From Clostridiales bacterium (GTDB taxonomy: Bacteria; Bacillota; Peptococcia; DRI-13; UBA5745): a stretch of 64,000 nucleotides of DNA. This document shows positions 20,141-44,214 of this stretch, piece after piece (position 1 is the stretch's first letter; every line of letters begins with the position of its first letter). The notes below the pieces were generated by a model. It made no database searches. It was not told the DNA's origin and worked only from the letters and a program-made list of their open reading frames with translations. The position numbers were made by a program, and so were the translations under genes. Location of the stretch: NCBI GenBank assembly GCA_038562165.1, contig JBCFAO010000012.1, forward strand, positions 19,850 through 83,849, in the 5' to 3' direction.

Positions 20141-21544
20141 TTACTGAGCCAGTACAATACCTAGCTTTTCCGCTATTTCCTTGGCCTGGGCCAGGGAGGG
20201 GGAGGCATCCCGCAGTACCAGGCGGCCGCCGCCCCGGTTCAGGGTATCCACCATGAAGGCGCCCTCATCGGTTTCGATGGTGATCTTTTGAATGCCGTAT
20301 TCTTTGTTTTCCTTAATGTCTACGGCAATACCCATCTCTTTGACTTTGTCTACGGCTTTGCCGTACATCTCGTAATCGCCGGTATTGGCGCCGAAGACGG
20401 CTCCCATAAGGACGCCGGGGATATTGATGGCCCGGCGGGCAAAAAGCTCGGGATAAAGCTCTACGGTAACCTTTTTAATATTGCCCTTGGCCAGCTCATG
20501 GACGATTCTGGCGGCATTGGTGGGGGAACCCACGGCCTGGCTGGATCCGCCTACTACGGCGTCGCCGTAGGTCTGGAGGATGGGCTTGGTGCCGTCGGCC
20601 AGCTTTTTAGCGATTTCCTTAGCCTTCTGCAAGGTTTCTTCGATCTGCTTGTTTTCGGCAGCCTTGACCTCTTCGCTGATCAGGGATTCCACATTGGCTT
20701 TACGCTTAAAGAAAGGTTCCATGAATTCCACCACCGTAGGCACCACGGCTTTGGCGGAGACCACATGGACCTCGGCAGCCATGGCGATCATCACGTCGAT
20801 GGGCACATTAACGGTCATATCCACCAGCATGCAGAGGCGGGCGGAGTACATACCGATAAGAATAGCGCCGCCCACATGGGTGGTGCAAAGGGCCGGCACC
20901 AGCACCCTGGGAGTGCAGGGATTGGCGATGGTGGGGGAAATGGCCAGAACCATGGCCTTTTCCATTTGCTCGGGAGTGCCGCCTTCCAAAGCTACGGTAG
21001 CGGCGGAGATGCAGGCGGCGCCGGCGCCGAAGCCTTCCATATTGCAGCCGGTGCTGACCTTGCCTACCCGGAAGATGCTGCCGATTTTCAGGATCAGGGC
21101 GGCTACCTCGGCAATGGCGGCCTCATCAACGCCCTCTGTCTGCATGGCTTTTACGAAGCCGGCATAGGGGCAGGAGTCGCCGGTGCCGGCACAGGGCCGC
21201 AAACCGATGCAGTGATTGCCCACCTGAGCCGCCAGCGTATAAAGCAGGGCGTTATCCAGGAAGGTATCCTTAAAGCATTTCGTGCCTTTAACTTGATTCA
21301 ATTGTGAGGCCACGGTGCCCAGCAGAATACTTTCGCCGTCTTTCAGGCCGATGTCCAGAGCTTTCAGGTTGTGGGCATATTCGTCCATCACTTTTGTGAG
21401 AATCTCTTCCCGGGAAAGGCCTGTACGCAGCTCGCTTTCAATGAGCACCACGTCTACTACCCGGGCGTTATATTCGCTGGCCAGGGCCAGCATTTCCCCA
21501 ATGGTTAAGGGCATTTTTTCCTTAATAGCTTCTCTTAAACCCAT
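20141..21544 (-). CDS. hmd: 2-(hydroxymethyl)glutarate dehydratase (fused [4Fe-4S] L-serine-dehydratase-like alpha+beta)
   Basis: 467 aa with serine-dehydratase-like domains. Cluster context. Start moved to the ATG at 21544, 8 nt after AAAGGA. Confidence 0.75.
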   Translation of the reverse strand: MGLREAIKEKMPLTIGEMLALASEYNARVVDVVLIESELRTGLSREEILTKVMDEYAHNLKALDIGLKDGESILLGTVASQLNQVKGTKCFKDTFLDNALLYTLAAQVGNHCIGLRPCAGTGDSCPYAGFVKAMQTEGVDEAAIAEVAALILKIGSIFRVGKVSTGCNMEGFGAGAACISAATVALEGGTPEQMEKAMVLAISPTIANPCTPRVLVPALCTTHVGGAILIGMYSARLCMLVDMTVNVPIDVMIAMAAEVHVVSAKAVVPTVVEFMEPFFKRKANVESLISEEVKAAENKQIEETLQKAKEIAKKLADGTKPILQTYGDAVVGGSSQAVGSPTNAARIVHELAKGNIKKVTVELYPELFARRAINIPGVLMGAVFGANTGDYEMYGKAVDKVKEMGIAVDIKENKEYGIQKITIETDEGAFMVDTLNRGGGRLVLRDASPSLAQAKEIAEKLGIVLAQ

Positions 21545-21594
21545 GTGATCATTCCTTTCCAAACCCTTGCATACTCATTTTTGATGTGGCAGCC

Positions 21595-30386: not shown

Positions 30387-32630
30387 TTAGCTGCGGATCT
30401 TTTTCATCACTTCCGTAGGCATTAGAGGAAGCTCGAAAAATCTCTGACACAAAGCGTTTTCCACAGCATTGGTAATGGCGGGAATACCCGGTATCAAAGC
30501 AGGCTCACCGACGCCTTTGGCGCCGAAGGGACCGGCCTCTCCAGGACACTCAACGATAATGGGATAAATTTCAGGTGAATCCATAGCGGTGGGAATCAGA
30601 TATTTTGAGAAAATGGGGTTTTTGATTTTACCCTTTTCGAATTCGATTTTTTCAAAAACGGCAAAGCCTTGAGCCATCACCATGCCGCCTTCGATTTGGC
30701 CTTCCACCATCTCCCGGTCTACGGCCTGGCCTACGTCATGGGCAGAAATCAGTTTCTGCACATCCACTTCGCCGGTGCTGGTATCTACAGACACTTGGGC
30801 GATGGTGGTGCCGTAAGAATAGATCTCGTAAGGAATACCGGCCATGGTTTTGGCATCCAGATAGGTGGTCTTGGGGTTGTAAGCGCCGGCGCCTACTGCC
30901 AGCTTGCCCCATTTTTTCATCTCAGCCATCAGCTCAGGGTACGTCATTTTGATGGCGGGGTCCTTGGAGCTGTAGATCATCCGGTCACGGAAGATCAGGT
31001 CTTCTTTGGGCACATTCAGAAAATTGGAAGCGGTCTCGGCTAAGGTATCCTTAGCCTGCTTGCAGGCATTTCTGGTGGCGTTGCCGGAGATAAAGGTCTG
31101 GCGGCTGGCTGAAGAGGCGCCGCCTTCCGGTGTTACCATTGTGTCGGCGGCAACAACATGAATGTCGTCATAAGAAAGACCCAGTTCTTCGGCGGCAATG
31201 GCGGCCATAACCGTGGAGGAGCCCTGGCCGATATCGGCGCAGCCTACCATCAGGTTGACGGAGGCGTCAGCCAATACCTCGACGAAAGCGCCGGCGGGAT
31301 TGGGCAAGCCGGTGTTGCCGACGCCGTACCACATGCAGCCTACGCCGATGCCTTGGTTTTCTTTGCAGGGATCCAGCACTTCCGCCGCTTTTTTCTTGGC
31401 TTCCAGCAGGGTATCGACAAAACCTACAGCCTCGTCCAGCACCTGGCCGGTGGCCAGCACCGTGCCGGGCCTTTGGGCATTGAGAATCCGCAGGTCGATG
31501 GGATCCATATTAAGAGCCTTAGCCAGTGCGTTCATCTGGCCTTCATGGCAGACGGAAACCTGGGGTACGCCAAAGCCCCGGAAAGCGCCGCACATAGGGT
31601 TGTTGGTGTAAACAAAATCTGCATCAATCCGCACATTGGGCACATCGTAGGGACCCATGGCGTGGACCACGGCTCTGGTGATAACCGCGGGACCGTAAGA
31701 GGCGTAAGCGCCGGTATCGCCGGTCATGAAGACTTCCGTTGCTAAAACCTTGCCGTCTTTGGTGGCGCCGGTTTTGGCTTTCATCACCATGGGATGGCGC
31801 TTGGCGGAAACGTCGGTGGACTCTTTACGGCTGCGGACCATCTTCACAGGGCGGCCGGTGGCGTTGGTCAAAAGAGCCAAGTGGCACTGGACGGAAATAT
31901 CCAGCTTGCCGCCGAAGCCGCCGCCGGTGGTTACCTGCATTACCCGGACCTTGTTGTTGGGCAGGCCCATGGTTCTGGCCACCTCGCCCCGGTCAAAATG
32001 GGCGTTTTGGGTGGAAGCATAGACGGTGAGAATGCCGTCTTCGATACGGGCTACGCCGGCATCGGGCTCGATAAACATATGGGACAGCATATTGGTGGTG
32101 TAAGTGCCTTCGACGATAACGTCACATTGGGCAAAAGCTGCATCCACATCGCCGGATTCCAAATGCTTGCGGGCATGGAGGTTGCTGTCGCCATGGACTT
32201 TGATGGCGCCCTCTTTCATAGCGTCCTCATAGGAGAGGATGGGCTCCAGGAGGTCGTACTCCACTTCCATTAGCTCCAAAGCTTCTTCCACCAGCTCCGG
32301 TGTTTCGGCGGCTACGATAGCGATGGCGTCGCCTACCCGGCGGATCTTGTCGTCCACCAGTACCGGCTCATCCTTCATAATGATACCGATGCGGTTGCCG
32401 CCGGGGATATCCTTGGAGGTCAGCACACAAGCCACACCAGGCAGGGCCAGAGCTTTGGAAGCATCGAAGCGTTTGATGGTGGCATGGGGCACTGTGCTGC
32501 GGAAAACACCGCCGTACAGCATATGGTCGAATTTTAAATCGGCGGCAAATAAAGCCTTGCCGGTAACTTTATTGTAGGCGTCCTTTTTTACATTGGCTTT
32601 GCCCAGGACTGCCAGATCACGTAATGCCAT
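30387..32630 (-). CDS. Molybdopterin-binding subunit of a xanthine-dehydrogenase-family hydroxylase (nicotinate dehydrogenase; corresponds to NdhL+NdhM as one polypeptide)
   Basis: 747 aa. [11 protein letters not shown] motif. Uninterrupted ORF following the FAD and 2Fe-2S subunit genes. Confidence 0.8.
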
Positions 32631-32650
32631 ATTGATCGCTCCTTCCTTCC

Positions 32651-33115
32651 TTAATTTCCTGCGGCCATATCGACGGCCTTAAAGATTTTGGTGTAGCCGG
32701 TGCAGCGGCAGAGGTTGCCGGACAGCGCCCGCCGGATTTCTTCATGAGTGGGATGGGGATTCTTCATCAGCAGGGCTTTGGCCGATAAAACCATGCCCGG
32801 CGTGCAATAACCGCATTGAACAGCGCCGGCTTCCACGAAAGAAGTCTGCAGTTTGTCCAGCTCGCCGTCTTTCATCAAACCCTCGAGAGTCAGGATGCTG
32901 TCCCCTTCAATTTGGCCGGCCAGCATCAGGCAGCTGGTAACGGGAGTGCCGTTTACTAAGACGGTGCAAGCACCGCATTCCCCTTCGCTGCAGCCTTCTT
33001 TAACGCTGGTGCATTCGCAATCTTCCCGCAAAAGATCCACTACCCGTTTGTTGGGATTGGTTTCTACCGTTACGGGCTTATCATTTAATATAAAGCTGAT
33101 TTTTATTTTATCCAT
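32651..33115 (-). CDS. ndhS: Nicotinate dehydrogenase [2Fe-2S] small subunit
   Basis: [25 protein letters not shown]. Start set to the ATG at 33115 (TAAtATG junction with ndhF). Confidence 0.85.
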
Positions 33116-33116
33116 A

Positions 33117-33998
33117 TTAACGACCACCTTCCTGCAGACCAAAATCCGCCAGAATCCGGCCAAAGGTCTTGTCGGAAACGCCTTTGACCCCTTCTTTCTT
33201 GTAAGGCATGGAAGCTCTGGTGGGAATCATCTCCCTGACGGCATCCGACAGCAGATCGGCACAAGGTGCAAAGGTGGCTTTGCTGACGGGTTTGCCTGCC
33301 AAATACTCCTCAACCTTGGGCAAACGGGCAGGCTTAGGCGATACGCCGCCTATGACTACCTGAGCCCGGCTGATATTGCCGGCATCGTCTTTTTCAACGA
33401 GGACGGCCAAACCTACAACGACGATGACCAAGGCCTTTCTCTTGCCCAGCTTCATGGTGGCCGTGGCAACTCCCTTGGCAGGCGCGTCGAAATAGATTTC
33501 CGTCATTAACTCGTCGTCGGCAATCTGGGTTTTTTTGCAGTTGGCGTAGAAGTCCGTCAGCTTCATTTCCCGTTTGCCGGCCTTGCTTTGCAGCACTACG
33601 GTGGCATCCAGGGCCATGAAGGTGGTGGGGCTGTCGCCGGCCACGGAGCAATTGACTACATTGCCGCCGATGGTGCCCAAATTGCGGATCTGGGGCGAGC
33701 CTACATGAACGGCGCAAGAATGAAGGCCTTTGACATTCTCTCTGATATAAGGATCGTTTTCCAGTTCGGTAAAGGTGGTTAAGGCGCCGATTTTCACTTT
33801 GCCGTCTTCCACTTTACAATAACGGAGCTCATTGAGCTTGTTGATGTTGATCACACAGTCGGTGTCCCGCTGACGTTCCGTCAGCTCGATGACCACGTCT
33901 GTGCCGCCGGCGATAACCGTGGCTCTGCCTTTACATTGGTTCAGCAGATCCAAAGCCTCTGTCAGCGTCTTTGGCGTGTAAAAATTAAATGCTTTCAT
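33117..33998 (-). CDS. ndhF: Nicotinate dehydrogenase FAD-binding subunit (CoxM/XdhB-like)
   Basis: 293 aa. IAGGTDVVIEL and GTIGGNV motifs. Confidence 0.85.
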   Translation of the reverse strand: MKAFNFYTPKTLTEALDLLNQCKGRATVIAGGTDVVIELTERQRDTDCVININKLNELRYCKVEDGKVKIGALTTFTELENDPYIRENVKGLHSCAVHVGSPQIRNLGTIGGNVVNCSVAGDSPTTFMALDATVVLQSKAGKREMKLTDFYANCKKTQIADDELMTEIYFDAPAKGVATATMKLGKRKALVIVVVGLAVLVEKDDAGNISRAQVVIGGVSPKPARLPKVEEYLAGKPVSKATFAPCADLLSDAVREMIPTRASMPYKKEGVKGVSDKTFGRILADFGLQEGGR

Positions 33999-34079: not shown

Positions 34080-34970
34080 TTAACAATCTTTGACCTTGAC
34101 GCCGGCCAAGTCTTCCCAAACCTTGATGACGGCGGAAATATCCTGGCGGTTGAGGCCTTTGGCCCGGGCCATCTCAAAAACCTGAGCCGCAGCGGCGGTC
34201 AAAGGCAGAGGGGCGGCCACGTCTTTGGCGGCGTCAAGAGCCAGGCCCAGATCTTTGTACTGCAGATCCACGGCAAAGCCCGTATCAAAAGCATCGGCCA
34301 TGATGAATTTGTCAAACTTAGCCTCCAGGGCATAGGAACGGCCGGAGCTGACGCTGATTACTTCTTTCATGGTTTCCGCTTTCAGACCCAGCTTAGCGCC
34401 CAAAACGAGAGCCTCGGCCAGGGCGGCCATGCTGGTGCCCAAGAGCAAGTTGTTGACGATTTTAATGGCGTCGCCGGCGCCGGCTTCTCCAACGTGGTAA
34501 ATGTTTTTCCCTAATACCTGGAGAACGGGAGCAACTTTTTCATAAGTTTCTTCGTCACAGCCCACCATAATGGTAAGGGTGCCTGCCGCAGCGCCGGACA
34601 CGCCGCCGCTGACGGGAGCGTCCATGTATTTGACGCCGTATTTCTCGCCGGCCTTGGCCATAGCCTTGGTGGTGGCGGGAGCTACGCTACTCATGTCCAT
34701 GATGATGGTGCCGGGTTTGCAGTTTTCCATAACGCCGCCTTTGCCGGTCATGACCGTTTCTACAATTTTGGCGTTGGGCAGCGAAGTAACGATCAAATCA
34801 GCTTTGGCGGACAACTCTCCGCTATCGGCACAGGCTTTGGCGCCGAAGCCTTCCAGCTCTTTGACGTTTGCTTCAATTAAATCATAAACATAGACCTCGT
34901 AGCCGGCAGCCAAAAGATTCTTTGCCATAGGTTTGCCCATGGCGCCTGCGCCGATAAAACCGATTTTCAT
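34080..34970 (-). CDS. hgd: 2-(hydroxymethyl)glutarate dehydrogenase (3-hydroxyisobutyrate dehydrogenase family)
   Basis: MKIGFIGAGAMGKPMAKNL Rossmann N-terminus. Start set to the ATG at 34970 after AGAGGA. Confidence 0.85.
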   Translation of the reverse strand: MKIGFIGAGAMGKPMAKNLLAAGYEVYVYDLIEANVKELEGFGAKACADSGELSAKADLIVTSLPNAKIVETVMTGKGGVMENCKPGTIIMDMSSVAPATTKAMAKAGEKYGVKYMDAPVSGGVSGAAAGTLTIMVGCDEETYEKVAPVLQVLGKNIYHVGEAGAGDAIKIVNNLLLGTSMAALAEALVLGAKLGLKAETMKEVISVSSGRSYALEAKFDKFIMADAFDTGFAVDLQYKDLGLALDAAKDVAAPLPLTAAAAQVFEMARAKGLNRQDISAVIKVWEDLAGVKVKDC

Positions 34971-35085: not shown

Positions 35086-35667
35086 TTAGCGCAAGCCGTC
35101 TTCGCCTTTGATCTCGCTGATTTGCAGGCCGCCGATTCTGGGATGAGGACGGCCGCCGTCAGTGAAGGCCAGAGCCACTACGATTTCGTCGCATTTGGGA
35201 GCGTCGGCAATCCTGACCTCCATGGCATCATAGTGGGTGCGGACAAAAGCGGCGTCTTTATAGTGCAGAGGTACATCCAAAGCCGTACCGGCAGCGCCGG
35301 CTTTTTTGGCGGAAGGAATGATGGCTTTGCCGCCGCCGATGGCGTCGCGCATGGGTTTGCCCAGCTTGGGATGAAGAATGGCGGCGCAATGCTCTAATTC
35401 GCCGTCCAGGCCGGCGATGGCGCCTTTGCCGTAGCTGTGGATATTGCCTTCGCCCAGAATCTTGGCAGCTTCCTTGGAAAGGTAATCGCCCAGCCATTCG
35501 CCGACTTCACTGAGCTCGGACAAATCTTCCTGGTATTTGCCGGCATAAGGATTCTTAATAACGGCGGCTACGGAAACCCGGCGAATGGGTTTTTCCAGGT
35601 CGGAGAAGCCTTCGTAACGGATTTCTTCCACAGAGGTAACGACTTTTCTGATTTTGGGTTCTAACAT
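35086..35667 (-). CDS. AA_synth / DUF1185 family protein ('amino acid synthesis' family, function unknown)
   Basis: About 193 aa. Sequence pattern (VAAVIKNPYAG..., GKGAIAGLDGELEH) recalled as PF06684-like. ATG at 35667 after GGAGAG. Confidence 0.5.
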   Translation of the reverse strand: MLEPKIRKVVTSVEEIRYEGFSDLEKPIRRVSVAAVIKNPYAGKYQEDLSELSEVGEWLGDYLSKEAAKILGEGNIHSYGKGAIAGLDGELEHCAAILHPKLGKPMRDAIGGGKAIIPSAKKAGAAGTALDVPLHYKDAAFVRTHYDAMEVRIADAPKCDEIVVALAFTDGGRPHPRIGGLQISEIKGEDGLR

Positions 35668-35705
35668 AAGCAATCTCTCCTTTATATGTATAATTGATCT
35701 TGATC

Positions 35706-36623
35706 TTACTCGGTTTGGGAGCCTGGCATATTGATCCGGATCATCTGATCCTGAACTCTGGCGGTCATCGCCAGTAAGTTGCCTTTATGCTTTTGCCGGA
35801 GGGCTTCCTGCTCCGCTTGGGCCAAAGCCTGCCGCACTTCCCGGCGGGTCAGCCGGTCTACTGCCACTACTACATCCAGATCCCGGATATCGCTTTGGGG
35901 ATCGAAAACACCGGCTTTCGTCGTCAGAACCCGGGGAGAAGGCACATAGGTGGTATTGGCCAGGTGAGTGGCCAAAGCGTCGGCTAAAATGCAACGGGAA
36001 GAAAAAACGCTGACCCCTTGGGCGATGCCCCGGGTGAAGCTTCTGCCCCCCAAACCGCTGGTGGCTACGCCGCCGATGCCGTCCTCAGCTTTGATGGGAA
36101 CCACCAGATCCACCTGGCCGGCAGCAAGGCTTGACATAATGCCCAGATTCAGCTTTTGTCCGGGGGCCAGCCGCAGAGCTACGTCGCCGCCGTTGTTGAC
36201 GGAAACCCGCTGGGCTCCCCGGGCAAAGAGCCAATCGGCTACTAAATCCGCCATAGCCCCGGCAACGGTAGCCATAGGAGTCAAAGTAGGCTCTTCCACT
36301 GCTAAAACGGCCTCCAGCATTTGGGCCGGCAGTCCCGTCAGAATCCGCAAGGGAATTTGGCCGGGATACAGGCGCAATAAATCCAGAGAGGAGGTGAGCT
36401 CTTTCAGCCCTTCCTCTATTACGGCAAAAGCCTGGCAGCAAAGGTCCGTTAAGGGACGGCCTTCTTTATCGGCCATAATCACCATGGAAACGGGCCCGTA
36501 GTCTACGTAAACCTTGCCGTCCTCCAGCACCCGGTAAGGACCGGAGTCCGGGGCGGAGGCAAGCCGGTCATGATCTGTAATTTGATACTGCATAGAAGCC
36601 TCCGCAAAACCTGTAGTAATCAT
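35706..36623 (-). CDS. UPF0280 / ApbE-related protein
   Basis: 305 aa. Recalled resemblance to the UPF0280 family (ApbE-like fold). Sits directly downstream of hnr. Confidence 0.5.
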   Translation of the reverse strand: MITTGFAEASMQYQITDHDRLASAPDSGPYRVLEDGKVYVDYGPVSMVIMADKEGRPLTDLCCQAFAVIEEGLKELTSSLDLLRLYPGQIPLRILTGLPAQMLEAVLAVEEPTLTPMATVAGAMADLVADWLFARGAQRVSVNNGGDVALRLAPGQKLNLGIMSSLAAGQVDLVVPIKAEDGIGGVATSGLGGRSFTRGIAQGVSVFSSRCILADALATHLANTTYVPSPRVLTTKAGVFDPQSDIRDLDVVVAVDRLTRREVRQALAQAEQEALRQKHKGNLLAMTARVQDQMIRINMPGSQTE

Positions 36624-36731: not shown

Positions 36732-38237
36732 CTAGGCATCGCCTTTTAAGGTTTTGACATCCTTGACCTGATCCATATGACCGCCAATAGCCTCGTAGTC
36801 CGATAGCTTCATGGTATACTCCACCGGCGCCACCGTAGCGGGAGTGGGGACCCAGCTAAAGCCGTTGGCTACCACTTGCTCGGTATCGATGATGAAGTTG
36901 ATGCCGCCGCCGGGAAGAATAAAGGTGGGAGCGCCGCCGATGGTCAGAACGGCTTTGCCGGCGTGGACGGCTTTGGAAAGAGCCAGAGGCTTCTTGCAGA
37001 CGCCGCCCCGGGCGCTGCCGCCGGTACCGCCGGTGTACATCACGGAACAGCGGGATTCTTCACAGGCTTCATTGATGGCTTTCGGCACCCGCAGGGCTTT
37101 TTCCGTCATGGGGATGGCCTTGACTTCGCCGTCGGCCTGTAGCTCAAAGAGCTCATGAATCTCACCGGTGGTATTGACCACCAGAATCGTCATGCCCGGT
37201 TTGGCAATGGACATATCCACGCTCTTGATGGCATCCCGGCAGCTCATCAGCGTAGTGCCGCCGATGCCGTCGCCGTGTTCGCCAAAGTAGCGGCCCCGGG
37301 AGCTCTTGGTGGCGTTGGGCACCACGCCGCTCCAGGAAAGGCCGATGGCAGCGCCGGCCAGATGCTCGGTGCATAAGCCGATGACATGATGGTCGATAAC
37401 CAGGCATTCGTCCACGCATTCTTTCATGAGATAGGCAAAGAGGCCTACGGTAGCGCTGCCGCAGCCCAGGCGCATTTTCTTTTCCTGAACGCCGTTGATG
37501 ATGGGGGCTTTGCCGGCCTGCATGCGGACTTTGTATTTCTTGTCTACGGAAACTTCCACTTCCTGGCCGTTGGCCAGTTCCACGATGGTGCGGGCCGTCA
37601 TGAAGCCGCCGTCACCGGTGAGCCGGTTAGCGCCGCCGATGGCGATCATTTTGGAGCCGTATTCTTCCGTATTGACCATACCCACAACTTTGCCGTCACG
37701 GTAGACCTTGGCGCCCTCTTCGCCGATATAGCTGTTGGTATCCAGCTTCACAATCAGGCCGCTGTAGCTCAAAGGTGCTTCTGTGACAACGGTAACCACA
37801 TCCACGCCCTCTCTGCTTTCCTTGACGATATGGGGAGCAGGCAGGGAGCAGGGGTAGTTGGCGCCGCCGCCGACGGCGGTAATGATGGGCCGGCGGATAT
37901 TTTCCTCGGGGGAAACTAAATCCTTGGGCTCCAAAACATGTTCCAAAGTTCTTTCCAGCTTGCCGTTTCTGTTGGCGTAGCGTTTGCAAGCACCGGTAGC
38001 GCCTTCAGGAACCCGGCACTGAATGGGACAGTTGCTGCATATTACGGCGGCAGCCGGCAATTCGTCGGTTTTCTCCAAAGCTTTAAAAGGACAAACCCGG
38101 ACGCAGATGCCGCATTGTACGCAGGAATCTTTAATGTGCAGTTTTTTTCCTTCTAAGTACAAAGCTTCTACGGGACAGTTTTTTACGCAAATACCGCAGC
38201 TTTTACAATTTTCGTTAACGATGATCACTAAATCCAC
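36732..38237 (-). CDS. hnr: 6-hydroxynicotinate reductase (N-terminal 2x[4Fe-4S] ferredoxin domain)
   Basis: CKSCGICVKNCP and CVQCGICVRVCP, then CSNCPIQC...C. About 500 aa. Start ambiguous (GTG at 38237 or GTG at 38228). Confidence 0.78.
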   Translation of the reverse strand: MDLVIIVNENCKSCGICVKNCPVEALYLEGKKLHIKDSCVQCGICVRVCPFKALEKTDELPAAAVICSNCPIQCRVPEGATGACKRYANRNGKLERTLEHVLEPKDLVSPEENIRRPIITAVGGGANYPCSLPAPHIVKESREGVDVVTVVTEAPLSYSGLIVKLDTNSYIGEEGAKVYRDGKVVGMVNTEEYGSKMIAIGGANRLTGDGGFMTARTIVELANGQEVEVSVDKKYKVRMQAGKAPIINGVQEKKMRLGCGSATVGLFAYLMKECVDECLVIDHHVIGLCTEHLAGAAIGLSWSGVVPNATKSSRGRYFGEHGDGIGGTTLMSCRDAIKSVDMSIAKPGMTILVVNTTGEIHELFELQADGEVKAIPMTEKALRVPKAINEACEESRCSVMYTGGTGGSARGGVCKKPLALSKAVHAGKAVLTIGGAPTFILPGGGINFIIDTEQVVANGFSWVPTPATVAPVEYTMKLSDYEAIGGHMDQVKDVKTLKGDA

Positions 38238-38299: not shown

Positions 38300-39460
38300 T
38301 TATTGAACTTTGGCCTGGCGTGTGGCGGGAGGCGTATTGCGGCTCTTGTTGACCTTCACTACGCCGTCGATGATGACGATGCTGACGCCGGGGATGTCGC
38401 CGGCGGCAATGGCGCCCAAAGCGTCCTCGGCTACGGAGCCCAAAGGGGCGTCCATGATTACCAGGTCGGCCTCTTTGCCGGGAGCAATAACGCCGGTGTT
38501 TAGACCGTAGACCTTGGCGGTATTGCCGGTGGCCATACAAACGGTCTGTTCGGGAGCGATGCCGGATACGGAAGCGATCTGGCACATATTGCGCAGGATG
38601 CCCAAGGGAATCAGGCCGGTGCCGGAAGGAGCGTCGTTGCCGAAGATAATCCGGGGCAGCATACCTTTTTCCTGGGCCCGGCGGGCTACGTAATCGGCTA
38701 CCTTGGGATTGCCGCACTGAACGATTTCCAGAGCAAATTCCGTCTCGTCCATGATACGGTCCACTTCCTGCAGGGAGATAGCGGTAGGTCCGCCATTAAT
38801 ATGAGAAACCACATCGGGCTTCGTGGCGATAACATCAGCGGCAGTGACGGTGGAGCTGCCGGGAATGGAAGTGCCGCCGGTATGCATTTGCACTTTGAAA
38901 CCATATTTATGGGCCCACTCTACCATCGGAGCTGCTTCGGCAGGAGACTTGACGGAACCCAGGCCGATTTCGCCTACGATCCATACGCCTTGCTCTTTCA
39001 GCTCGGCAAAGTCTTTTTCCACAAGGCCTTTTTCCAGGATCAGGCCGCCGCCGTGAACTTTAACCCCGGAAGGCCGGGCATTCTCATAAGATTTATGGGC
39101 TAAAATAGCCAGGGCTTTCGTACCGGCCGGATCTTTAGGACGGCCGGGCATATGAGCCTCGCCGGCGGAAATCATAGTGGTAACGCCGCCGTGTAAAGCA
39201 CTGTCAATATAATTAAGGGTGGACTGGCGCTGGGCAAAATCTCCGATAGTGGTATGAACGTGAGAATCAAAAAGTCCGGGTGTTACGGTAGTGCCGCCGG
39301 CGTCAATAACTTTGGCGCCTTCAGCCTTTTCGGCCAGCTCTTTGCCGCCGATGGCAACGATAAGGTTGTCCTCCACGACTATAGTATCACCTTTCAGGAT
39401 TGGGTTGGCACAATCCCCGCTGACAATAGTACCGATGTTGGTAATGATTAGCTTGCTCAT
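38300..39460 (-). CDS. ena: Enamidase (amidohydrolase superfamily; 1,4,5,6-tetrahydro-6-oxonicotinate hydrolase)
   Basis: 386 aa from the ATG at 39460 (GAGGAG RBS). GLFDSHVHTTIG metal-binding motif. Confidence 0.82.
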   Translation of the reverse strand: MSKLIITNIGTIVSGDCANPILKGDTIVVEDNLIVAIGGKELAEKAEGAKVIDAGGTTVTPGLFDSHVHTTIGDFAQRQSTLNYIDSALHGGVTTMISAGEAHMPGRPKDPAGTKALAILAHKSYENARPSGVKVHGGGLILEKGLVEKDFAELKEQGVWIVGEIGLGSVKSPAEAAPMVEWAHKYGFKVQMHTGGTSIPGSSTVTAADVIATKPDVVSHINGGPTAISLQEVDRIMDETEFALEIVQCGNPKVADYVARRAQEKGMLPRIIFGNDAPSGTGLIPLGILRNMCQIASVSGIAPEQTVCMATGNTAKVYGLNTGVIAPGKEADLVIMDAPLGSVAEDALGAIAAGDIPGVSIVIIDGVVKVNKSRNTPPATRQAKVQ

Positions 39461-39534: not shown

Positions 39535-39550
39535 AGCAAGAAGTATGCCA
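39535..39550 (-). promoter_or_regulatory. Sigma-54 (-24/-12) promoter upstream of ena
   Basis: Minus strand TGGCATACTTCTTGCT. GG-N10-GC spacing is exact. About 75 nt upstream of the ena ATG. Confidence 0.75.
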
Positions 39551-39833: not shown

Positions 39834-41405
39834 TTATTCAATGCCAAATTCTTTGATTTTTCGCCAGAGGGTGATGGTGCTGATACCCAGCAGGTCGGCG
39901 GCTTCTTTTTTAATGCCGCCGGCATGATGCAAGGCGTTTTTGATGGCTGCAATCTCCGCATGCTGGATCTGGTCCTTTAAATTGAAAGATTTGCCCGTTG
40001 GGCCCCTGTGGCCCTGACTCAAGTTCAGCAAATAAGGGGGCAGGCTTGAACTCAGCAACCGGCTTTCGTTGACGCTGGTCATATTCATAGCCCGTTCCAC
40101 GCAGCTTTTCAACTCCCGCACATTGCCGGGCCAGTGGTGGCTCATTAAAATGTCGTAAAATCTGTCTTCGGCGGAAAAGACGAATTTTCCCAACAGCCGG
40201 TTAAATTCCGCAATAAAAGTTTTAACCAGCAGGGGAATATCCTCCTTGCGCTCCCGCAAAGGGGGGATGCGGATCTCGATGACGTTGATGCGGTAGTAGA
40301 GGTCCTCCCGGAAACGGCCTTCTTTGACAGCCTGAAGCAGGTCGCTATGGGTGGAGGAAATAATGCGGACGTCCAGCTTAATCGGCGTGAACTCCCCGAT
40401 GCGCATTACCTCTTTTTCCTGAATGACCCGCAGCAGTTTTGTCTGCAGGTCCGGCGGCATTTCACTGATTTCGTCAAGAAAAATCGTACCCGTATTGGCC
40501 TGCTCGAAGGCGCCGCTGCTGCCTTCTTTTTTGGCACCGGTAAAAGCGCCGCCGGAATAGCCGAATAAATAGCTTTCGATGATGCTGGCCGGTATGGCGC
40601 CGCAGTTGATGGCGACGAAAGGCTTATCCCGCCGGTCGCTTTCGTTATGGATAGCCTGGGCAAAGAGCTCTTTACCGGTGCCCGTTTCCCCATTGAGCAA
40701 AATGGAGGAGGCCCGGGAGGCCGTAAGGCACAAGTGCTTGGCATAAGTGATTTTTTCGCTTTCGCCTACAATATCCTTTAAATTGTAGCGGGCGGTCTGA
40801 AACTTTTTAACTTCCTCAAATAATTTTTTCTCATGGTGGACGGTGAGCTCGTTATTGAAGCCCAGACCGTATTCTTTAGTAATAGGAATGCGGATAGCCA
40901 TGGCCCCGTGAACGGAGGTGGATTCGCCGAAGGTGGGGGTTTGCTCCTCCATGGCTTTGCGGGCCAGCTTGCTGACCTTGCCGATTTGCTTTTCAATAAC
41001 CTTGCCAGCGGCGTCTACCGTATTGAGCCGTAAGCCGTTTTTATCGAAAATAACGGCTTCGCCGCCTACGAGGCGGGCAATAAAGGGCAGGGCCTGATCC
41101 AAAGATTTGACCAAGGCTTGATCCCTGGCGGTTTTGGCGGTGTTGCTGGCGGCAATCACGTAGTCGCCGAAGGGAATGGCCCAGGTTTGGGCGTCATTGG
41201 CGATTTGAGAGAAACCGATCTTGATCTGGCCGCTTTCACCGGCTTCCCGGGCCAGGTCGTAAACCATGCCCCGCATTTCCGTCAACTCCGTGCCGGAGGA
41301 ATCGTAAGTCCTGATCCGGATGCCGGCGGTGTCGGTGATTGTGGAATAGCCTTCGCAAATTTGGGCGATGGATTTTAAGGCATCTTCAAATTGGGCAGCT
41401 TCCAT
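39834..41405 (-). CDS. Sigma-54-dependent transcriptional activator (bEBP) with an uncharacterised N-terminal sensor domain
   Basis: 523 aa. GETGTGKELFAQAIH Walker A, GGAFTGA loop, C-terminal Fis-type HTH. Confidence 0.88.
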   Translation of the reverse strand: MEAAQFEDALKSIAQICEGYSTITDTAGIRIRTYDSSGTELTEMRGMVYDLAREAGESGQIKIGFSQIANDAQTWAIPFGDYVIAASNTAKTARDQALVKSLDQALPFIARLVGGEAVIFDKNGLRLNTVDAAGKVIEKQIGKVSKLARKAMEEQTPTFGESTSVHGAMAIRIPITKEYGLGFNNELTVHHEKKLFEEVKKFQTARYNLKDIVGESEKITYAKHLCLTASRASSILLNGETGTGKELFAQAIHNESDRRDKPFVAINCGAIPASIIESYLFGYSGGAFTGAKKEGSSGAFEQANTGTIFLDEISEMPPDLQTKLLRVIQEKEVMRIGEFTPIKLDVRIISSTHSDLLQAVKEGRFREDLYYRINVIEIRIPPLRERKEDIPLLVKTFIAEFNRLLGKFVFSAEDRFYDILMSHHWPGNVRELKSCVERAMNMTSVNESRLLSSSLPPYLLNLSQGHRGPTGKSFNLKDQIQHAEIAAIKNALHHAGGIKKEAADLLGISTITLWRKIKEFGIE

Positions 41406-41601: not shown

Positions 41602-42417
41602 ATGACCGATTTTCTAAAAAGAACGGCCAGAGTAGCCTTCGGCCTGTTTTTATGCGCTATAGGTTCTTATCTTAGTATTCAAGCTAACGTGGGGTTGGCG
41701 CCCTGGGGAGCCTTCAATATCGGCGTGGCCGCCGTCACGGGCCTGACCTACGGCAATGTTTCTATTATTACTGCTTTGCTGGTGATTCTGGTGGATGTGG
41801 CCCTCAAGGAGAAAATCGGCATGGGCACATTAATGGATTCCATTTTGATGGGCGTATTTGTGGATCTGATGATCCGGCTGAATCCGCTGCCCCAATGCAC
41901 AAATTACATTTTGGGAATTTTTGTGCTGCTGCTGGGGCAGGTAGCCATCTGCCTGGGAACCTACTATTATATAAGTGCGGGTTTGAGCTGCGGTCCCCGG
42001 GATTCGCTGATGGTGGCTTTGGACAAGCGCCTTTCCCGGGTGCCCATCGGAGCGGTACGGGGCCTTATCGAGACTACGGCTCTTCTGGTGGGCTGGCTTT
42101 TGGGGGCGAAAGTTGGTCTGGGCACAATTATAGCGGTTTTGGGAATCAGTTCTATTTTGCAATTGACGTTCAGCATGTTCCGGTTCGATCCGAAAACCGT
42201 GGATCATGAGGATATCCTTACCTCTTTTCGCAAGGTGAAGGCAGACTTGGCCAAGAAAGTGGGCGGAGGAAACGAAGGGAAAGCGGAAGGGTTTATTGTC
42301 CTAGAAAGAGCCGGAGCTGAGCCGCTGCCTGCCGACGGCTTGCCGTCTCTACCGCCAGGCATTGCACCAAAGGGTGCCTCTTTACCCGGTCAAGGAAAGG
42401 ATCGGATCTTTCCTTGA
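41602..42417 (+). CDS. YczE/YitT-like integral membrane protein
   Basis: 271 aa. N-terminal 200 aa polytopic. The hydrophilic tail is encoded antisense to the 3' end of the next gene. Confidence 0.5.
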   Translation: MTDFLKRTARVAFGLFLCAIGSYLSIQANVGLAPWGAFNIGVAAVTGLTYGNVSIITALLVILVDVALKEKIGMGTLMDSILMGVFVDLMIRLNPLPQCTNYILGIFVLLLGQVAICLGTYYYISAGLSCGPRDSLMVALDKRLSRVPIGAVRGLIETTALLVGWLLGAKVGLGTIIAVLGISSILQLTFSMFRFDPKTVDHEDILTSFRKVKADLAKKVGGGNEGKAEGFIVLERAGAEPLPADGLPSLPPGIAPKGASLPGQGKDRIFP

Positions 42418-43024
42418 TTACGCCTAATACCAGATAGGGGCCGTTCAGGACCTCCAATACCCGGTTTTGAAAGAGAAAGGCCTCTTTTTCCAAAAAGCCC
42501 AGCTCGTCCATCAGCACCAGGCTCCCGGGTGGGATGCCCTCCAGCAAGGCGGCGCCGGCGGTGTCGAAGACTTGGGGATAAGCCGCTATTATACCGGCTG
42601 GGCCGCAGAGGCCCACAAGGTTGCCGGAGTTGGGGCTGACAGATGAGGCGCAGCGGCCGCTAACAGAGGCGGCGGGGCTGCCGCTAAGCGAAGGACTGCC
42701 GCTAAGTGAGACGGGATTGTCCCATGAGGCAGGGGTGTCGGCGTTGGCGCTAATAGCACCGGTATCCTTGACTGCTTGGCCAATATCCGGCGGACTCAGC
42801 AGAACCTGGTGAGTGGCTTGCTTGACGTGGACGCAGGGCGGCTGCGAAAGCGAAGGGGGTTGCAGCGGGGGCTGGATCAGCGGAGCCTGAACCAGCAGGG
42901 AAGATTGAGGCAAAGGCAGCTTTTTCGTGGAAAAACCGGCCGGCGCTATATTAGCTTGCCGGAGAGCGGCATTGATCAGAGTAGTTTTGCCGGCGCCGCT
43001 GGGGCCGTAGAGAAAAAGATGCAT
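42293..43024 (-). CDS. THEP1-like P-loop NTPase with a large low-complexity insertion
   Basis: GPSGAGKTT Walker A, GFSTKKL, LVLMDELGFLE Walker B. About 100 aa P/S/Q-rich insert between them. Confidence 0.6.
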   Translation of the reverse strand: MHLFLYGPSGAGKTTLINAALRQANIAPAGFSTKKLPLPQSSLLVQAPLIQPPLQPPSLSQPPCVHVKQATHQVLLSPPDIGQAVKDTGAISANADTPASWDNPVSLSGSPSLSGSPAASVSGRCASSVSPNSGNLVGLCGPAGIIAAYPQVFDTAGAALLEGIPPGSLVLMDELGFLEKEAFLFQNRVLEVLNGPYLVLGVIKERSDPFLDRVKRHPLVQCLAVETASRRQAAAQLRLFLGQ

Positions 43025-43140
43025 AGCATACCTCCTTTTGCCTTATCTCTATTGTAATGGATAACAGGAGTCAAATCAATTAATCAATTTATCGGGCCGC
43101 AGTGGAAAAATTAGGGACAGAAGCGGTTTCTGTGCAGACC

Positions 43141-43430
43141 TTCAACTTTGCAGCTTTACATCTCATGCCATAGCGTGTTGTTCAAAATTGCAGGTTTGTA
43201 TTGCCTGCTTATAGCATTTTGCTCAAAATTGCAAGTTTGTAGGACGTATTTTGGCCTGGAAATAGGGTTTTCACCCATTTATGGGCCGAATTTGTTCCAA
43301 AGCAGGGATTTAGAGGTATACAAACCTGCATTTTTGCTCAGTTAGTCAAAGCGAACGATAACAAACTTGCAATTTTGAGCAGTTAGCTATGTCACACCCT
43401 AACAAACCTGCAATTTTGAGCAGTTAGCCT
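43141..43430. repeat. Family A modular inverted-repeat element, copy 2
   Basis: Cores at 43183 and 43224 (+, 41-bp spacing; degenerate one at 43141). Inverted cores at 43320, 43361 and 43402 (41-bp spacing). Confidence 0.8.
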
Positions 43431-43569
43431 TTGCTAGCCCCGCCCCTACCGTGCCACCGCCGCTGGCCTGTGCCGGTCGCCCCTACCGTGCCGCCACCGC
43501 CGCCGGTTCCCCTTTCGTCCGCTGCCGGCTTACTGCCCTGCCATTCTGGATTTAAAGGAGCATATATTA

Positions 43570-44214
43570 ATGGAAGAAAAAAATATCGGAGCCGTAGTTA
43601 TGGCTTCCGGCTTTTCCCGGCGTTTGGGAACCAACAAGCTGCTGATGCCTTTGGATGAAAAGACCAGAGTAATCGACAGGGTGCTGGATAGGATAAAAGA
43701 AATGGATTATGCTGCCGTGGCGGTGGTATCCCAGTACGAGGAGGTTTTGGAGCTGGCCTGCCGCCAAGGATTTAAGGCGGTGGCTAACGCCGAGGCCTTG
43801 GAAGGCAAAAGCAGCTCCATCCGGCTGGGTGTGGCCACTTTGGAAGCCATGGTGGACAGCGGCGAAAGCCCTCCCTTGGACGGCATGATTTTTTTCACCG
43901 GCGATCAGGCTCTGCTGACCAAGGAGCTGCTGGCAGCCCTAAAAGCGGCTTTTCAGGAGGAGCCCGATAAGATTGTATTCCCCGCCTATGATGGCAAGCC
44001 CGGCTCGCCGGCAATTTTCCCCATGGATATGGCTGGAAGGCTCAAGGAGCTCCAGGGCGAGGAGGGCGGCATGAGGGCTGCCTTTGAGCAAAAGGAACGG
44101 ATTCATTATCTGCCGGCGGGAGCTTCCTGGCAGGGCTGGGATTTGGATATCCTTGAGGATTGGGAAAAGATCAAACTTTTTTATTGTAATCTGAGCCGGG
44201 AACCCTTAAAATAG
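43570..44214 (+). CDS. MocA-like nucleotidyltransferase (molybdenum cofactor cytidylyltransferase family)
   Basis: 214 aa. VVMASGFSRRLGTNKLL N-terminal motif. Confidence 0.7.
   Translation: MEEKNIGAVVMASGFSRRLGTNKLLMPLDEKTRVIDRVLDRIKEMDYAAVAVVSQYEEVLELACRQGFKAVANAEALEGKSSSIRLGVATLEAMVDSGESPPLDGMIFFTGDQALLTKELLAALKAAFQEEPDKIVFPAYDGKPGSPAIFPMDMAGRLKELQGEEGGMRAAFEQKERIHYLPAGASWQGWDLDILEDWEKIKLFYCNLSREPLK

What the first reader, a model, noticed from the sequence alone, without database searches (positions are those of the whole stretch)
35086..36623. UPF0280/ApbE-like and DUF1185 (AA_synth) genes embedded between hnr and hgd, possibly missing accessory functions of the pathway
Two genes of unknown function sit inside the ena-hnr-...-hgd-ndh transcription unit. 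E. barkeri 6-hydroxynicotinate reductase is reported to carry a covalently bound flavin, and ApbE-type proteins are the known flavin transferases. The UPF0280 protein has an ApbE-related fold family as I recall it, and it is encoded immediately downstream of hnr. That makes it a plausible Hnr flavinylation or maturation factor. The DUF1185 protein has no known role and could be an extra Hnr subunit or act on an unstable intermediate (tetrahydro-oxonicotinate or 2-formylglutarate).
Basis: inference. Interest (0 to 1): 0.65.

Follow-up and report, generated by a model that had tools for sequence, protein, structure and literature searches.

The report
Two helper genes in nicotinate operon
Two small genes of unknown function inside a bacterial nicotinate-fermentation operon are real and belong to two separate modules: an ApbE-like protein that always travels with 6-hydroxynicotinate reductase and is probably its maturation factor, and a DUF1185 protein that travels with ring-opening hydrolases. 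Neither function has been tested by experiment.

Summary
On the minus strand, between hnr and hgd, lie a UPF0280/COG2122 gene of the ApbE superfamily (35706-36593, 295 aa) and an AA_synth/DUF1185 gene (35086-35667, 193 aa). They are the counterparts of E. barkeri OrfC (Q0QLF6) and Q0QLE8.

Comparative genomics splits them into two modules.

1. UPF0280 is tied to Hnr. It is present in 78 of 80 Hnr genome loci and is the next gene in 69. It is adjacent in all 26 Hnr-bearing plasmids, where hnr is only about 40% identical. It is essentially never found without Hnr.

2. AA_synth follows the ring-opening hydrolase. It sits next to enamidase when ena is separated from hnr. It also sits next to enamidase homologues that lack Hnr and UPF0280, next to HyuAB, and next to alpha/beta hydrolases in trigonelline-type operons.

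The flavin-transferase idea is plausible but unproven. The ApbE fold and the equivalents of ApbE Ser241, Asp285 and Thr289 are kept. However, the 19-residue loop carrying catalytic His257 is deleted, and Hnr has no D-x-x-[S/T]-G-A-[S/T] motif. The other known UPF0280 relatives act in homocysteine synthesis. AA_synth as an Hnr subunit is not supported; a role in handling the enamine or 2-formylglutarate product is the better reading.

Interest is moderate.

The parts
35706..36593 (-). UPF0280/COG2122 gene of the ApbE superfamily, Hnr-linked subfamily NF003322. It is the orthologue of E. barkeri OrfC (Q0QLF6). 295 aa.
35086..35667 (-). AA_synth/DUF1185 (PF06684) gene, 193 aa. It is the orthologue of E. 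barkeri Q0QLE8.
36732..38237 (-). hnr, 6-hydroxynicotinate reductase. It has an N-terminal 2x[4Fe-4S] ferredoxin domain, a CxxCxxxC...C motif, and a catalytic region of about 430 aa with no Pfam or PDB relative. The public gene call starts at 38228.
38300..39460 (-). ena, enamidase (amidohydrolase family). The ORF runs to 39517, but the recorded 386-aa product starts at 39460.
34080..34970 (-). hgd, 2-(hydroxymethyl)glutarate dehydrogenase (3-hydroxyisobutyrate dehydrogenase family). The recorded product is 296 aa.
30387..33998 (-). Nicotinate dehydrogenase genes: ndhF (33117-33998), ndhS (32651-33163), and a fused ndhL/M (30387-32630).
39536..39550 (-). Sigma-54 -24/-12 promoter element TGGCATACTTCTTGC upstream of ena. 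It is the only exact match in the window.
39834..41405 (-). Sigma-54-dependent transcriptional activator (PrdR/PrpR-like), the likely regulator of the operon.

Best explanation
The two genes serve two different steps of the pathway.

(1) The UPF0280 protein is a dedicated cytoplasmic accessory of 6-hydroxynicotinate reductase. It is a branch of the ApbE superfamily that lacks the catalytic histidine but keeps the nucleotide-diphosphate/Mg2+ site: the NNGGD motif, Thr188-Ser189, Arg194, and Asp215...Thr219, equivalent to ApbE Ser241, Arg265, Asp285 and Thr289. I think it most likely binds FAD and loads the flavin that Hnr is reported to carry covalently. The acceptor site would be non-canonical, and the acceptor or Hnr itself would have to supply the missing base.

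(2) The DUF1185 protein is not part of Hnr. It is a hexameric helper of the ring-opening hydrolase (enamidase here). It most likely speeds or controls conversion of the labile ring-opened product, 2-(aminomethylene)glutarate enamine/imine or the 2-formylglutarate enol/aldehyde, into the form used by the next enzyme, Hgd. This would parallel its homologue TgnF, which assists succinate-semialdehyde dehydrogenase after an enamide hydrolysis.

What is shown: the family and fold assignments, the retained and lost residues, and the two co-occurrence patterns. What is inferred: flavin loading, the acceptor site, and the chemistry of DUF1185.
For: UPF0280-Hnr pairing:
- A UPF0280 homologue is detectable in 78 of 80 Hnr genome loci and lies immediately downstream of hnr in 69.
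- In 26/26 plasmid records with Hnr (Alpha/Betaproteobacteria, about 40% identity) it is the next gene, often overlapping hnr by 4 nt.
- Of 27 plasmids with a UPF0280 hit, 26 carry Hnr. The exception is an IS1071-flanked remnant.
- Three divergent representatives (about 180-200 bits) also sit beside an Hnr-like gene.
- The pairing persists where no Mo-hydroxylase gene is nearby (L047, L064, L070, L076; L086).

ApbE relationship:
- The AF2 model has pLDDT 90.9.
- Foldseek finds DVU1097/2o34 at 2e-8, then about 40 ApbE/FmnB/Ftp chains at 1e-5 to 1e-3.
- hhalign aligns ATSG, GRS and ADALAT to ApbE ATSG(S241), GRP and TADGLAT(D285).
- These residues are invariant from Firmicutes to Proteobacteria.
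- UPF0280 is the least conserved protein of the operon core (median 52% identity vs 63% for Hnr and 70% for Ena), as is common for accessory factors.
- RefSeq already auto-names the E. barkeri orthologue 'FAD:protein FMN transferase'.

DUF1185:
- In 18 Firmicute loci where ena is separated from hnr, AA_synth follows ena, as in E. barkeri itself.
- 5 of 9 plasmids with an enamidase homologue (44-46% identity) but no Hnr or UPF0280 have AA_synth directly upstream of it.
- A metagenome contig has AA_synth-ena-aldehyde DH four genes away from hnr-UPF0280.
- In Proteobacterial hnr clusters AA_synth abuts HyuA/B-type lactam hydrolases.
- In 7 other sampled contexts it precedes, and in several overlaps, an alpha/beta hydrolase in operons with a flavin oxygenase and an aldehyde dehydrogenase.
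- TgnF, a DUF1185 protein, is reported to stimulate TgnE succinate-semialdehyde oxidation (PMC7913881 citing Perchat 2018).
- A constellation of Lys/Glu/His/Arg residues is invariant across all these contexts. It maps to the conserved His-lined cavity of the solved hexamer (PMC2954203).
Against: Against flavin loading by UPF0280:
- The ApbE loop RNYFEQDGVRYSHIIDPTT with His257, the proposed general base, is deleted, and no invariant His or Cys replaces it.
- Hnr has no ApbE recognition motif (0/29).
- The only genetics on the wider family link it to DUF39-dependent homocysteine synthesis, where no flavin is known.
- The covalent linkage in Hnr is uncharacterised and could be autocatalytic (8-alpha type).
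- Translational coupling with hnr fits a stoichiometric subunit equally well.

Against the DUF1185 proposal:
- To my recollection, enamidase alone was reported to convert THON to 2-formylglutarate plus ammonia, so any role may be kinetic or protective only.
- In Proteobacteria AA_synth is always beside hnr-UPF0280.
- HcdD, another homologue, showed no stimulatory effect.
Confidence: 0.45

Rival explanations
1. UPF0280 is a permanent, stoichiometric subunit of the Hnr holoenzyme, structural or forming part of the active or cofactor site, rather than a transient maturation enzyme.
For: It is next to hnr almost everywhere, with 4-nt start/stop overlaps in Proteobacteria. Its pairing is as strict as that of known subunit pairs. 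In D. vulgaris, COG2122 fitness tracks the DUF39 enzyme at r = 0.98.
Against: As I recall it, Hnr purified from E. barkeri was a single-polypeptide enzyme (not verifiable here). UPF0280 evolves faster than Hnr (52% vs 63% median identity). No Hnr-UPF0280 fusion appears among the 150 best representatives. The gene can sit several kb from hnr in 9 loci.
Confidence: 0.2
2. UPF0280 works as proposed for COG2122 in homocysteine synthesis: as a sulfur/persulfide relay or other non-flavin cofactor (Fe-S) maturation factor for a ferredoxin-dependent reductase.
For: It belongs to the same family as DVU1097 and the COG2122 proteins required for DUF39-dependent homocysteine synthesis. Hnr is an Fe-S enzyme with an extra 4-Cys motif conserved across phyla.
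Against: No cysteine is conserved in the Hnr-linked subfamily. This subfamily has its own NCBIfam model, NF003322, distinct from the shorter UPF0280 models. What is conserved is the ApbE-type Ser/Asp/Thr nucleotide site.
Confidence: 0.15
3. UPF0280 and/or DUF1185 mature the selenium-molybdenum nicotinate dehydrogenase (Ndh) encoded next door.
For: ndh genes are close in most loci, and Ndh needs specialised cofactor insertion.
Against: hnr-UPF0280-AA_synth persists in loci with no Mo-hydroxylase gene within 10 kb (L047, L064, L070, L076; L086). UPF0280 occurs in only 27 plasmid records, all but one of them carrying Hnr. The window separately encodes a MocA/YgfJ-type Mo-cofactor cytidylyltransferase and a P-loop NTPase.
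Confidence: 0.04
4. DUF1185 is an additional Hnr subunit or acts on the Hnr reaction itself (substrate or product tautomerisation).
For: In Proteobacteria one or two AA_synth genes always follow hnr-UPF0280 with overlapping reading frames. In 42 Firmicute loci it directly follows UPF0280.
Against: It separates from hnr and follows ena in 18 loci. It pairs with enamidase homologues and alpha/beta hydrolases in operons that lack Hnr. The family is far larger than the Hnr family (389 vs 26 plasmid records).
Confidence: 0.12

Closest known systems
ApbE / Ftp / FmnB FAD:protein FMN transferases (PF02424; PDB 6nxi, 3pnd, 4xgv, 7esa)
   Same: Same overall fold. Conserved GGD/E strand, the ATSG serine (ApbE Ser241), GR(S/P), and the ADxxAT Asp/Thr (ApbE Asp285/Thr289). 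A role in maturing a covalent flavoprotein is plausible, and cytoplasmic ApbEs exist.
   Different: The score is below the Pfam threshold. The 19-residue loop with catalytic His257 is deleted. By inspection there is no lipoprotein signal. The presumed client Hnr lacks the D-x-x-[S/T]-G-A-[S/T] motif and any FMN_bind domain.
UPF0280 / COG2122 / DUF375 proteins of the homocysteine pathway (DVU1097 = PDB 2o34, DvMF_0044, MA1715)
   Same: This is the closest solved structure and the same family. Each is a strictly co-functional partner of one ferredoxin-linked enzyme of unknown cofactor chemistry.
   Different: The window protein belongs to a different subfamily, NF003322 (about 280-300 aa), not the 240-250 aa models. 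Its partner is Hnr, not DUF39. No similarity between Hnr and DUF39 could be detected with the tools available. Arg194 stands where DVU1097 has His.
E. barkeri OrfC (Q0QLF6) and Q0QLE8 in the published nicotinate fermentation cluster
   Same: They are orthologues (55% and 71-72% identity) in the same pathway cluster. [quoted passage not shown]
   Different: The gene order differs. In E. barkeri it is hnr-orfC-hgd-ndhFSLM-transporter-ena-AA_synth. In the window it is ena-hnr-UPF0280-AA_synth-hgd-ndh.
TgnF (DUF1185) of the Acinetobacter baylyi trigonelline pathway
   Same: Same family, with the same invariant residues. It is encoded next to the hydrolase that cleaves an enamide and releases an aldehyde, together with an aldehyde-converting dehydrogenase. 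It is reported to assist succinate-semialdehyde dehydrogenase.
   Different: Identity is only 35-40%. The partner hydrolase is an alpha/beta hydrolase rather than an amidohydrolase. The downstream enzyme oxidises the aldehyde, whereas Hgd reduces it.
BB2672 (3byq) and SPO0826 (2qtp), solved DUF1185 structures
   Same: Same family, at E 2e-37 and 4.5e-59. [quoted passage not shown] Their conserved His cluster and salt-bridge residues are retained here.
   Different: Those proteins were interpreted as 'amino-acid metabolism' proteins from neighbouring LIV-type ABC transporters. In hnr clusters such transporters are the putative nicotinate transporter, so that name is probably misleading.

Membership tests
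ApbE FAD:protein FMN transferase (PF02424) | Sequence score at or above the Pfam gathering threshold | tested here: not met
   25.1 bits against a threshold of 25.6. Only profile positions 126-242 of 266 are aligned.
ApbE FAD:protein FMN transferase (PF02424) | ApbE fold | tested here: met
   AF2 model with pLDDT 90.9. Foldseek hits to ApbE/FmnB/Ftp at E 2.5e-5 to 5e-3, probability 1.0, TM up to 0.53.
ApbE FAD:protein FMN transferase (PF02424) | Conserved catalytic residues Ser241-His257-Asp285 (V. cholerae numbering; review PMC12052999) | tested here: not met
   Ser189 and Asp215 (plus Thr219) align and are invariant, but the loop containing His257 is deleted and no conserved His exists.
ApbE FAD:protein FMN transferase (PF02424) | The client protein carries the flavinylation motif D-x-x-[S/T]-G-A-[S/T] | tested here: not met
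   0 of 29 Hnr sequences have it. The nearest look-alike, GCGSAT, varies at the Thr position in Proteobacteria.
ApbE FAD:protein FMN transferase (PF02424) | Mg2+-dependent FAD binding and FMN transfer with AMP release | not testable with these tools
   This needs biochemistry.
UPF0280 / COG2122 (NCBIfam PRK04334 group; Pfam PF27030) | Match to the family models | tested here: met
   PF27030 is precomputed on the exact protein. NF003322 is the best hit and matches over the full length at E 4.9e-58, but below the equivalog cut-off (196.5 vs 290). Proteobacterial Hnr-linked orthologues pass it at 336-390 bits.
UPF0280 / COG2122 (NCBIfam PRK04334 group; Pfam PF27030) | Structural similarity to DVU1097 (2o34) | tested here: met
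   Foldseek E 1.9e-8, TM 0.56/0.73. Profile E 1.6e-8.
UPF0280 / COG2122 (NCBIfam PRK04334 group; Pfam PF27030) | Functional association with DUF39 and NIL/ferredoxin (homocysteine synthesis) | tested here: not met
   In every locus examined the partner is Hnr, and no DUF39 gene appears in any of these contexts. The rest of the genome was not searched.
AA_synth / DUF1185 (PF06684) | Pfam gathering threshold and full-length match | tested here: met
   240.2 bits against a threshold of 27; residues 8-181 align to profile positions 1-175 of 175.
AA_synth / DUF1185 (PF06684) | Conserved Glu/Arg salt-bridge pairs and His cluster of the hexamer interface cavity (PMC2954203) | tested here: met
   E90, E92, H93, R173 and R177 are invariant and H145 is nearly invariant across 16 sequences from all contexts.
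AA_synth / DUF1185 (PF06684) | TgnF-like assistance of an aldehyde-converting step | not testable with these tools
   Only gene context supports it.
6-hydroxynicotinate reductase (HNR_EUBBA) for the neighbouring gene | Orthology to the characterised E. barkeri enzyme, within a nicotinate cluster | tested here: met
   68% identity over the full length to HNR_EUBBA. The complete set of E. barkeri-type pathway genes is present in the window.

The most novel reading that the evidence does not exclude
UPF0280/COG2122 proteins are a second branch of the ApbE superfamily that lacks the catalytic histidine. They install a covalently bound flavin, or another nucleotide-derived group, at a non-canonical site in cytoplasmic ferredoxin-dependent reductases with orphan folds. 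Hnr is the client here, and by extension the DUF39 homocysteine synthase is the client elsewhere. This would explain both the unexplained covalent flavin of Hnr and the unexplained requirement for COG2122 in homocysteine synthesis.
Probability: 0.25. Interest if true: 0.8.

Novelty: new variant of a known kind. Interest (0 to 1): 0.55.

Why it matters
Three open questions become testable with one small gene set:
- How and where the covalent flavin of 6-hydroxynicotinate reductase is attached. The catalytic domain of this enzyme has no recognisable relative.
- What the UPF0280/COG2122 family does. It is genetically required for homocysteine synthesis in sulfate reducers and methanogens, but has no known biochemistry.
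- What DUF1185 'amino acid synthesis' proteins do. Their name appears to derive from misread transporter neighbours. They recur next to hydrolases that open N-heterocycles.

A non-canonical flavin transferase would also widen the ApbE-based protein-labelling toolbox. If the answers turn out to be ordinary (a plain subunit, or a dispensable helper), the annotation of several thousand genes would still improve.

Tried and rejected
- Primary paper: Alhapel et al. 2006 could not be retrieved by DOI, PMC id or PMID. Perchat et al. 2018 is also not held. Statements about the covalent flavin, the subunit composition of Hnr and the bifunctionality of enamidase therefore rest on my recollection.
- Persulfide-relay idea for UPF0280: weakened, because no Cys is conserved.
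- Ndh (Se/Mo) maturation idea: rejected on gene context.
- 'GCGSAT' and 'GGTGGSARGG' as flavinylation sites: the first is not conserved at the Thr position, and neither fits the ApbE motif.
- Gene fusions of UPF0280 with Hnr or AA_synth: none among the best 150 of 2099 representatives. The longer proteins carry no extra domain.
- Mirror-tree and partial-correlation analysis of distance matrices: only 9 loci had full-length single HSPs for all seven proteins, and there was no discriminating signal.
- Hydrogenophaga plasmid with UPF0280 but no Hnr: this is a repeated IS1071-bounded fragment, not an independent context.
Full report
**What is there.** The interval 35086-36623 holds two minus-strand genes inside a run of same-strand genes.
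- The upstream gene was listed as 305 aa from an ATG at 36623. The ATG at 36593 has a GGAGG 6 nt upstream. The 295-aa product from that start is exactly the protein recorded in public assemblies, whereas the 305-aa version is not on record.
- The downstream gene starts at the ATG at 35667, after an AAAGGAGAG site. Its 193-aa product is again the recorded one.
- Flanking genes are ena, hnr, hgd and ndhF/S/LM.
- Further downstream are an EIIC-like transporter, dimethylmalate dehydratase (aconitase family), B12-dependent 2-methyleneglutarate mutase, a PrpF-type isomerase, a GlmL-like protein and a PEP-mutase/ICL-type lyase. This is the complete E. barkeri-type nicotinate fermentation set.
- The only exact sigma-54 -24/-12 match in the window lies just upstream of ena, beside a sigma-54 activator gene.
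- The window is not E. barkeri. Hnr is 100% identical to a protein of an NCBI 'Clostridiales bacterium' MAG and 68% identical to HNR_EUBBA.

**Family assignments.**
- The 295-aa protein hits NCBIfam NF003322 (PRK04334 = UPF0280 group) end to end (E 4.9e-58) and Pfam ApbE just under threshold (25.1 vs 25.6 bits). It carries PF27030 'AbpE_bact'. JGI calls its homologues 'ApbE superfamily uncharacterized protein (UPF0280 family)'.
- The 193-aa protein is an unambiguous PF06684 AA_synth/DUF1185 member (240 bits). It is close to the solved structures 2qtp and 3byq.
- The E. barkeri orthologues are Q0QLF6 'uncharacterized protein OrfC' and Q0QLE8. RefSeq auto-names the former 'FAD:protein FMN transferase'.
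[quoted passage not shown] The presence of these genes is therefore known. Their function is not.

**Co-occurrence of UPF0280 with Hnr.**
- A scan of one genome per species found 359 Hnr relatives, and the best 80 loci were fetched. A tblastn survey found a UPF0280 homologue at 50% coverage or more in 76 of them, immediately downstream of hnr in 67.
- Two further loci have a partial copy cut by the contig end. Of the remaining two, one has only 55 nt downstream and the other (L043) is cut 136 nt upstream of hnr.
- In the plasmid collection, 26 records carry an Hnr homologue of about 40% identity that lacks the N-terminal 2x[4Fe-4S] domain. All 26 have UPF0280 as the next gene, often with a 4-nt overlap.
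- The one additional UPF0280-bearing plasmid holds four copies of an IS1071-bounded fragment.
- Three more divergent family representatives also sit beside an Hnr-like gene.
- The pairing holds where no Mo-hydroxylase gene is near.
- NF003322 is in effect the model of this Hnr-linked subfamily. Proteobacterial members score 336-390 bits against a cut-off of 290.
- An exhaustive profile search finds 510 representatives at E <= 1e-30 and 2099 at E <= 1e-3. There are no informative fusions.

**Is UPF0280 an ApbE?**
- The AF2 model is confident (pLDDT 90.9). Its best PDB match is DVU1097 (2o34, a UPF0280/DUF375 protein), followed by about 40 chains of ApbE, FmnB and Ftp at E 1e-5 to 1e-3.
- A profile alignment to V. 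cholerae ApbE (93% probability) gives these equivalences: NNGGD to EIGGE, ATSG to ATSG (Ser189 = Ser241), GRS to GRP, and ADALAT to TADGLAT (Asp215 = Asp285, Thr219 = Thr289).
- These residues are invariant from Firmicutes to Proteobacteria. According to the 2025 ApbE review, Ser241, His257 and Asp285 are the only conserved catalytic-centre residues.
- The 19-residue ApbE loop that carries His257 is absent, and the subfamily has no invariant His or Cys.
- On the client side, none of 29 Hnr sequences has D-x-x-[S/T]-G-A-[S/T]. The look-alike GCGSAT varies at the Thr position in Proteobacteria.
- The protein is thus a member of the ApbE superfamily. It fails two defining tests of the flavin-transferase family proper.
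- The literature on the wider family points elsewhere. COG2122 is required, together with DUF39 and a NIL/ferredoxin protein, for homocysteine synthesis in Desulfovibrio. [quoted passage not shown] The lack of any conserved Cys argues against a persulfide carrier in the Hnr-linked subfamily.

**Hnr itself.**
- Beyond the ferredoxin domain and a CxxCxxxC...C motif conserved across phyla, the catalytic region of about 430 aa has no Pfam family, no sequence relative in the PDB, and no Foldseek match in the PDB.
- No known flavin-binding fold or attachment site can therefore be read from it. Cross-phylum invariant residues include H284, H292, H487, C259, C392, Y128 and S408.

**DUF1185 belongs to a different module.**
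- Among the 80 loci the gene follows UPF0280 in 42. In 18 loci where ena lies apart from hnr, including E. barkeri, it follows ena.
- Loci without a hit are consistent with truncation of the contig or flank.
- The family is much larger than the Hnr family: 389 plasmid records against 26.
- Of nine plasmids with an enamidase homologue but no Hnr or UPF0280, five have AA_synth directly upstream of it. These are Mariluticola (46% identical Ena), Shinella, Thermomicrobium, Mesorhizobium and Agrobacterium vitis.
- A metagenome contig has AA_synth-ena-aldehyde dehydrogenase four genes away from hnr-UPF0280.
- In proteobacterial hnr clusters that lack ena, one or two AA_synth genes lead into HyuA/HyuB-type ATP-dependent lactam hydrolases.
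- In seven other sampled contexts, AA_synth precedes, and in several overlaps, an alpha/beta hydrolase in operons with a flavin reductase/LLM oxygenase pair and an aldehyde dehydrogenase. This is the layout of the trigonelline (N-methylnicotinate) cluster, whose DUF1185 protein TgnF is reported to stimulate succinate-semialdehyde oxidation by TgnE.
- The same Lys/Glu/His/Arg constellation is invariant in all contexts. It corresponds to the conserved His-lined cavity at the dimer interface of the solved hexamers.

**Mechanistic reading.**
- The common chemistry of enamidase, TgnD and HyuAB-type enzymes in these operons is hydrolysis of a (cyclic) enamide. That gives an enamine, which must lose its amine to yield a 2-formyl-dicarboxylate. 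This is my inference from established pathway chemistry.
- I therefore propose that DUF1185 accelerates or controls enamine/imine hydrolysis or enol-aldehyde tautomerisation, and hands 2-formylglutarate to Hgd.
- For UPF0280, the strict pairing with Hnr, the retained nucleotide-diphosphate site and the reported covalent flavin make flavin loading the single most likely function. The confidence is only moderate, and the mechanism would necessarily be non-canonical.
- The main rivals are a permanent Hnr subunit, and a non-flavin maturation role shared with the homocysteine system.

**Verdict.** Nothing here is categorically new. However, the Hnr-linked UPF0280 clade, which lacks the catalytic histidine, is a distinct variant of a known kind with a concrete, cheap experimental test.

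Noticed in passing
window 39536-39550 (-) and 39834-41405 (-): The only exact sigma-54 -24/-12 element in the window (TGGCATACTTCTTGC) lies about 75 nt upstream of the recorded ena start, next to a PrdR/PrpR-like sigma-54 activator gene. The whole nicotinate operon is probably sigma-54 dependent.
   Followed up: partly
window 36732-38045 (-), Hnr residues about 65-501: The catalytic region of Hnr has no Pfam family, no PDB sequence relative and no Foldseek PDB match, apart from a weak GCV_T_C-like barrel signal. A strongly conserved loop (residues 120-135, AVGxGxxYPxxxPAPxIV) is the only low-confidence part of the AF2 model, which suggests a cofactor or partner site.
   Followed up: partly
L081-L086 (proteobacterial plasmids), e.g. 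L081 8111-12614: Proteobacterial Hnr lacks the 2x[4Fe-4S] domain and sits beside a ferredoxin-NADP reductase gene. Many of these clusters carry two tandem AA_synth paralogues. Where ena is missing, they carry HyuA/HyuB (hydantoinase/oxoprolinase-type) genes, which suggests an ATP-dependent lactamase replaces enamidase.
   Followed up: partly
L081 13794-18421; L083 3501-8184; PMC2954203: The name 'amino acid synthesis family' for DUF1185 came from neighbouring LIV-type ABC transporters. In hnr clusters these are the putative nicotinate transporter, and SPO0826 (2qtp) scores like the Hnr-linked clade. The family name is therefore probably a misinference.
   Followed up: partly
L084 (Hydrogenophaga sp. 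BPS33 plasmid pBPS33-1), 1141-2073 and 11950-12882: A UPF0280 gene, together with UDG-like, MarR, Rieske oxygenase and TTT-transporter genes, is repeated at least twice in the stretch shown (four matches in the plasmid). Each copy begins right after an IS1071 transposase, as if a catabolic transposon had captured the 3' part of an hnr locus.
   Followed up: no
window 30387-32630 (-) versus L026 14619-16872: The large molybdopterin subunit of nicotinate dehydrogenase is one 747-aa ORF in the window. In E. barkeri it is split into NdhL (425 aa) and NdhM (330 aa).
   Followed up: no
window 20141-21562 (-): This 473-aa ORF at the distal end of the cluster has no Pfam hit and only a faint match to the alpha subunit of iron-sulfur L-serine dehydratase (E 3.5e-6). 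It is a candidate for a divergent 2-(hydroxymethyl)glutarate dehydratase.
   Followed up: partly
window 42293-44214: A P-loop NTPase_1-like gene (42293-43024, -) and a MocA/YgfJ-type molybdenum-cofactor cytidylyltransferase gene (43570-44214, +) flank the regulator. They are probably accessory genes for the Mo hydroxylase.
   Followed up: partly
window 17046-17891 (-): An IS3-type transposase (rve/HTH_21 domains) lies in a low-GC stretch (43-46% GC at 16-20 kb), at the far end of the nicotinate cluster next to a cytosine/purine-type permease gene.
   Followed up: no
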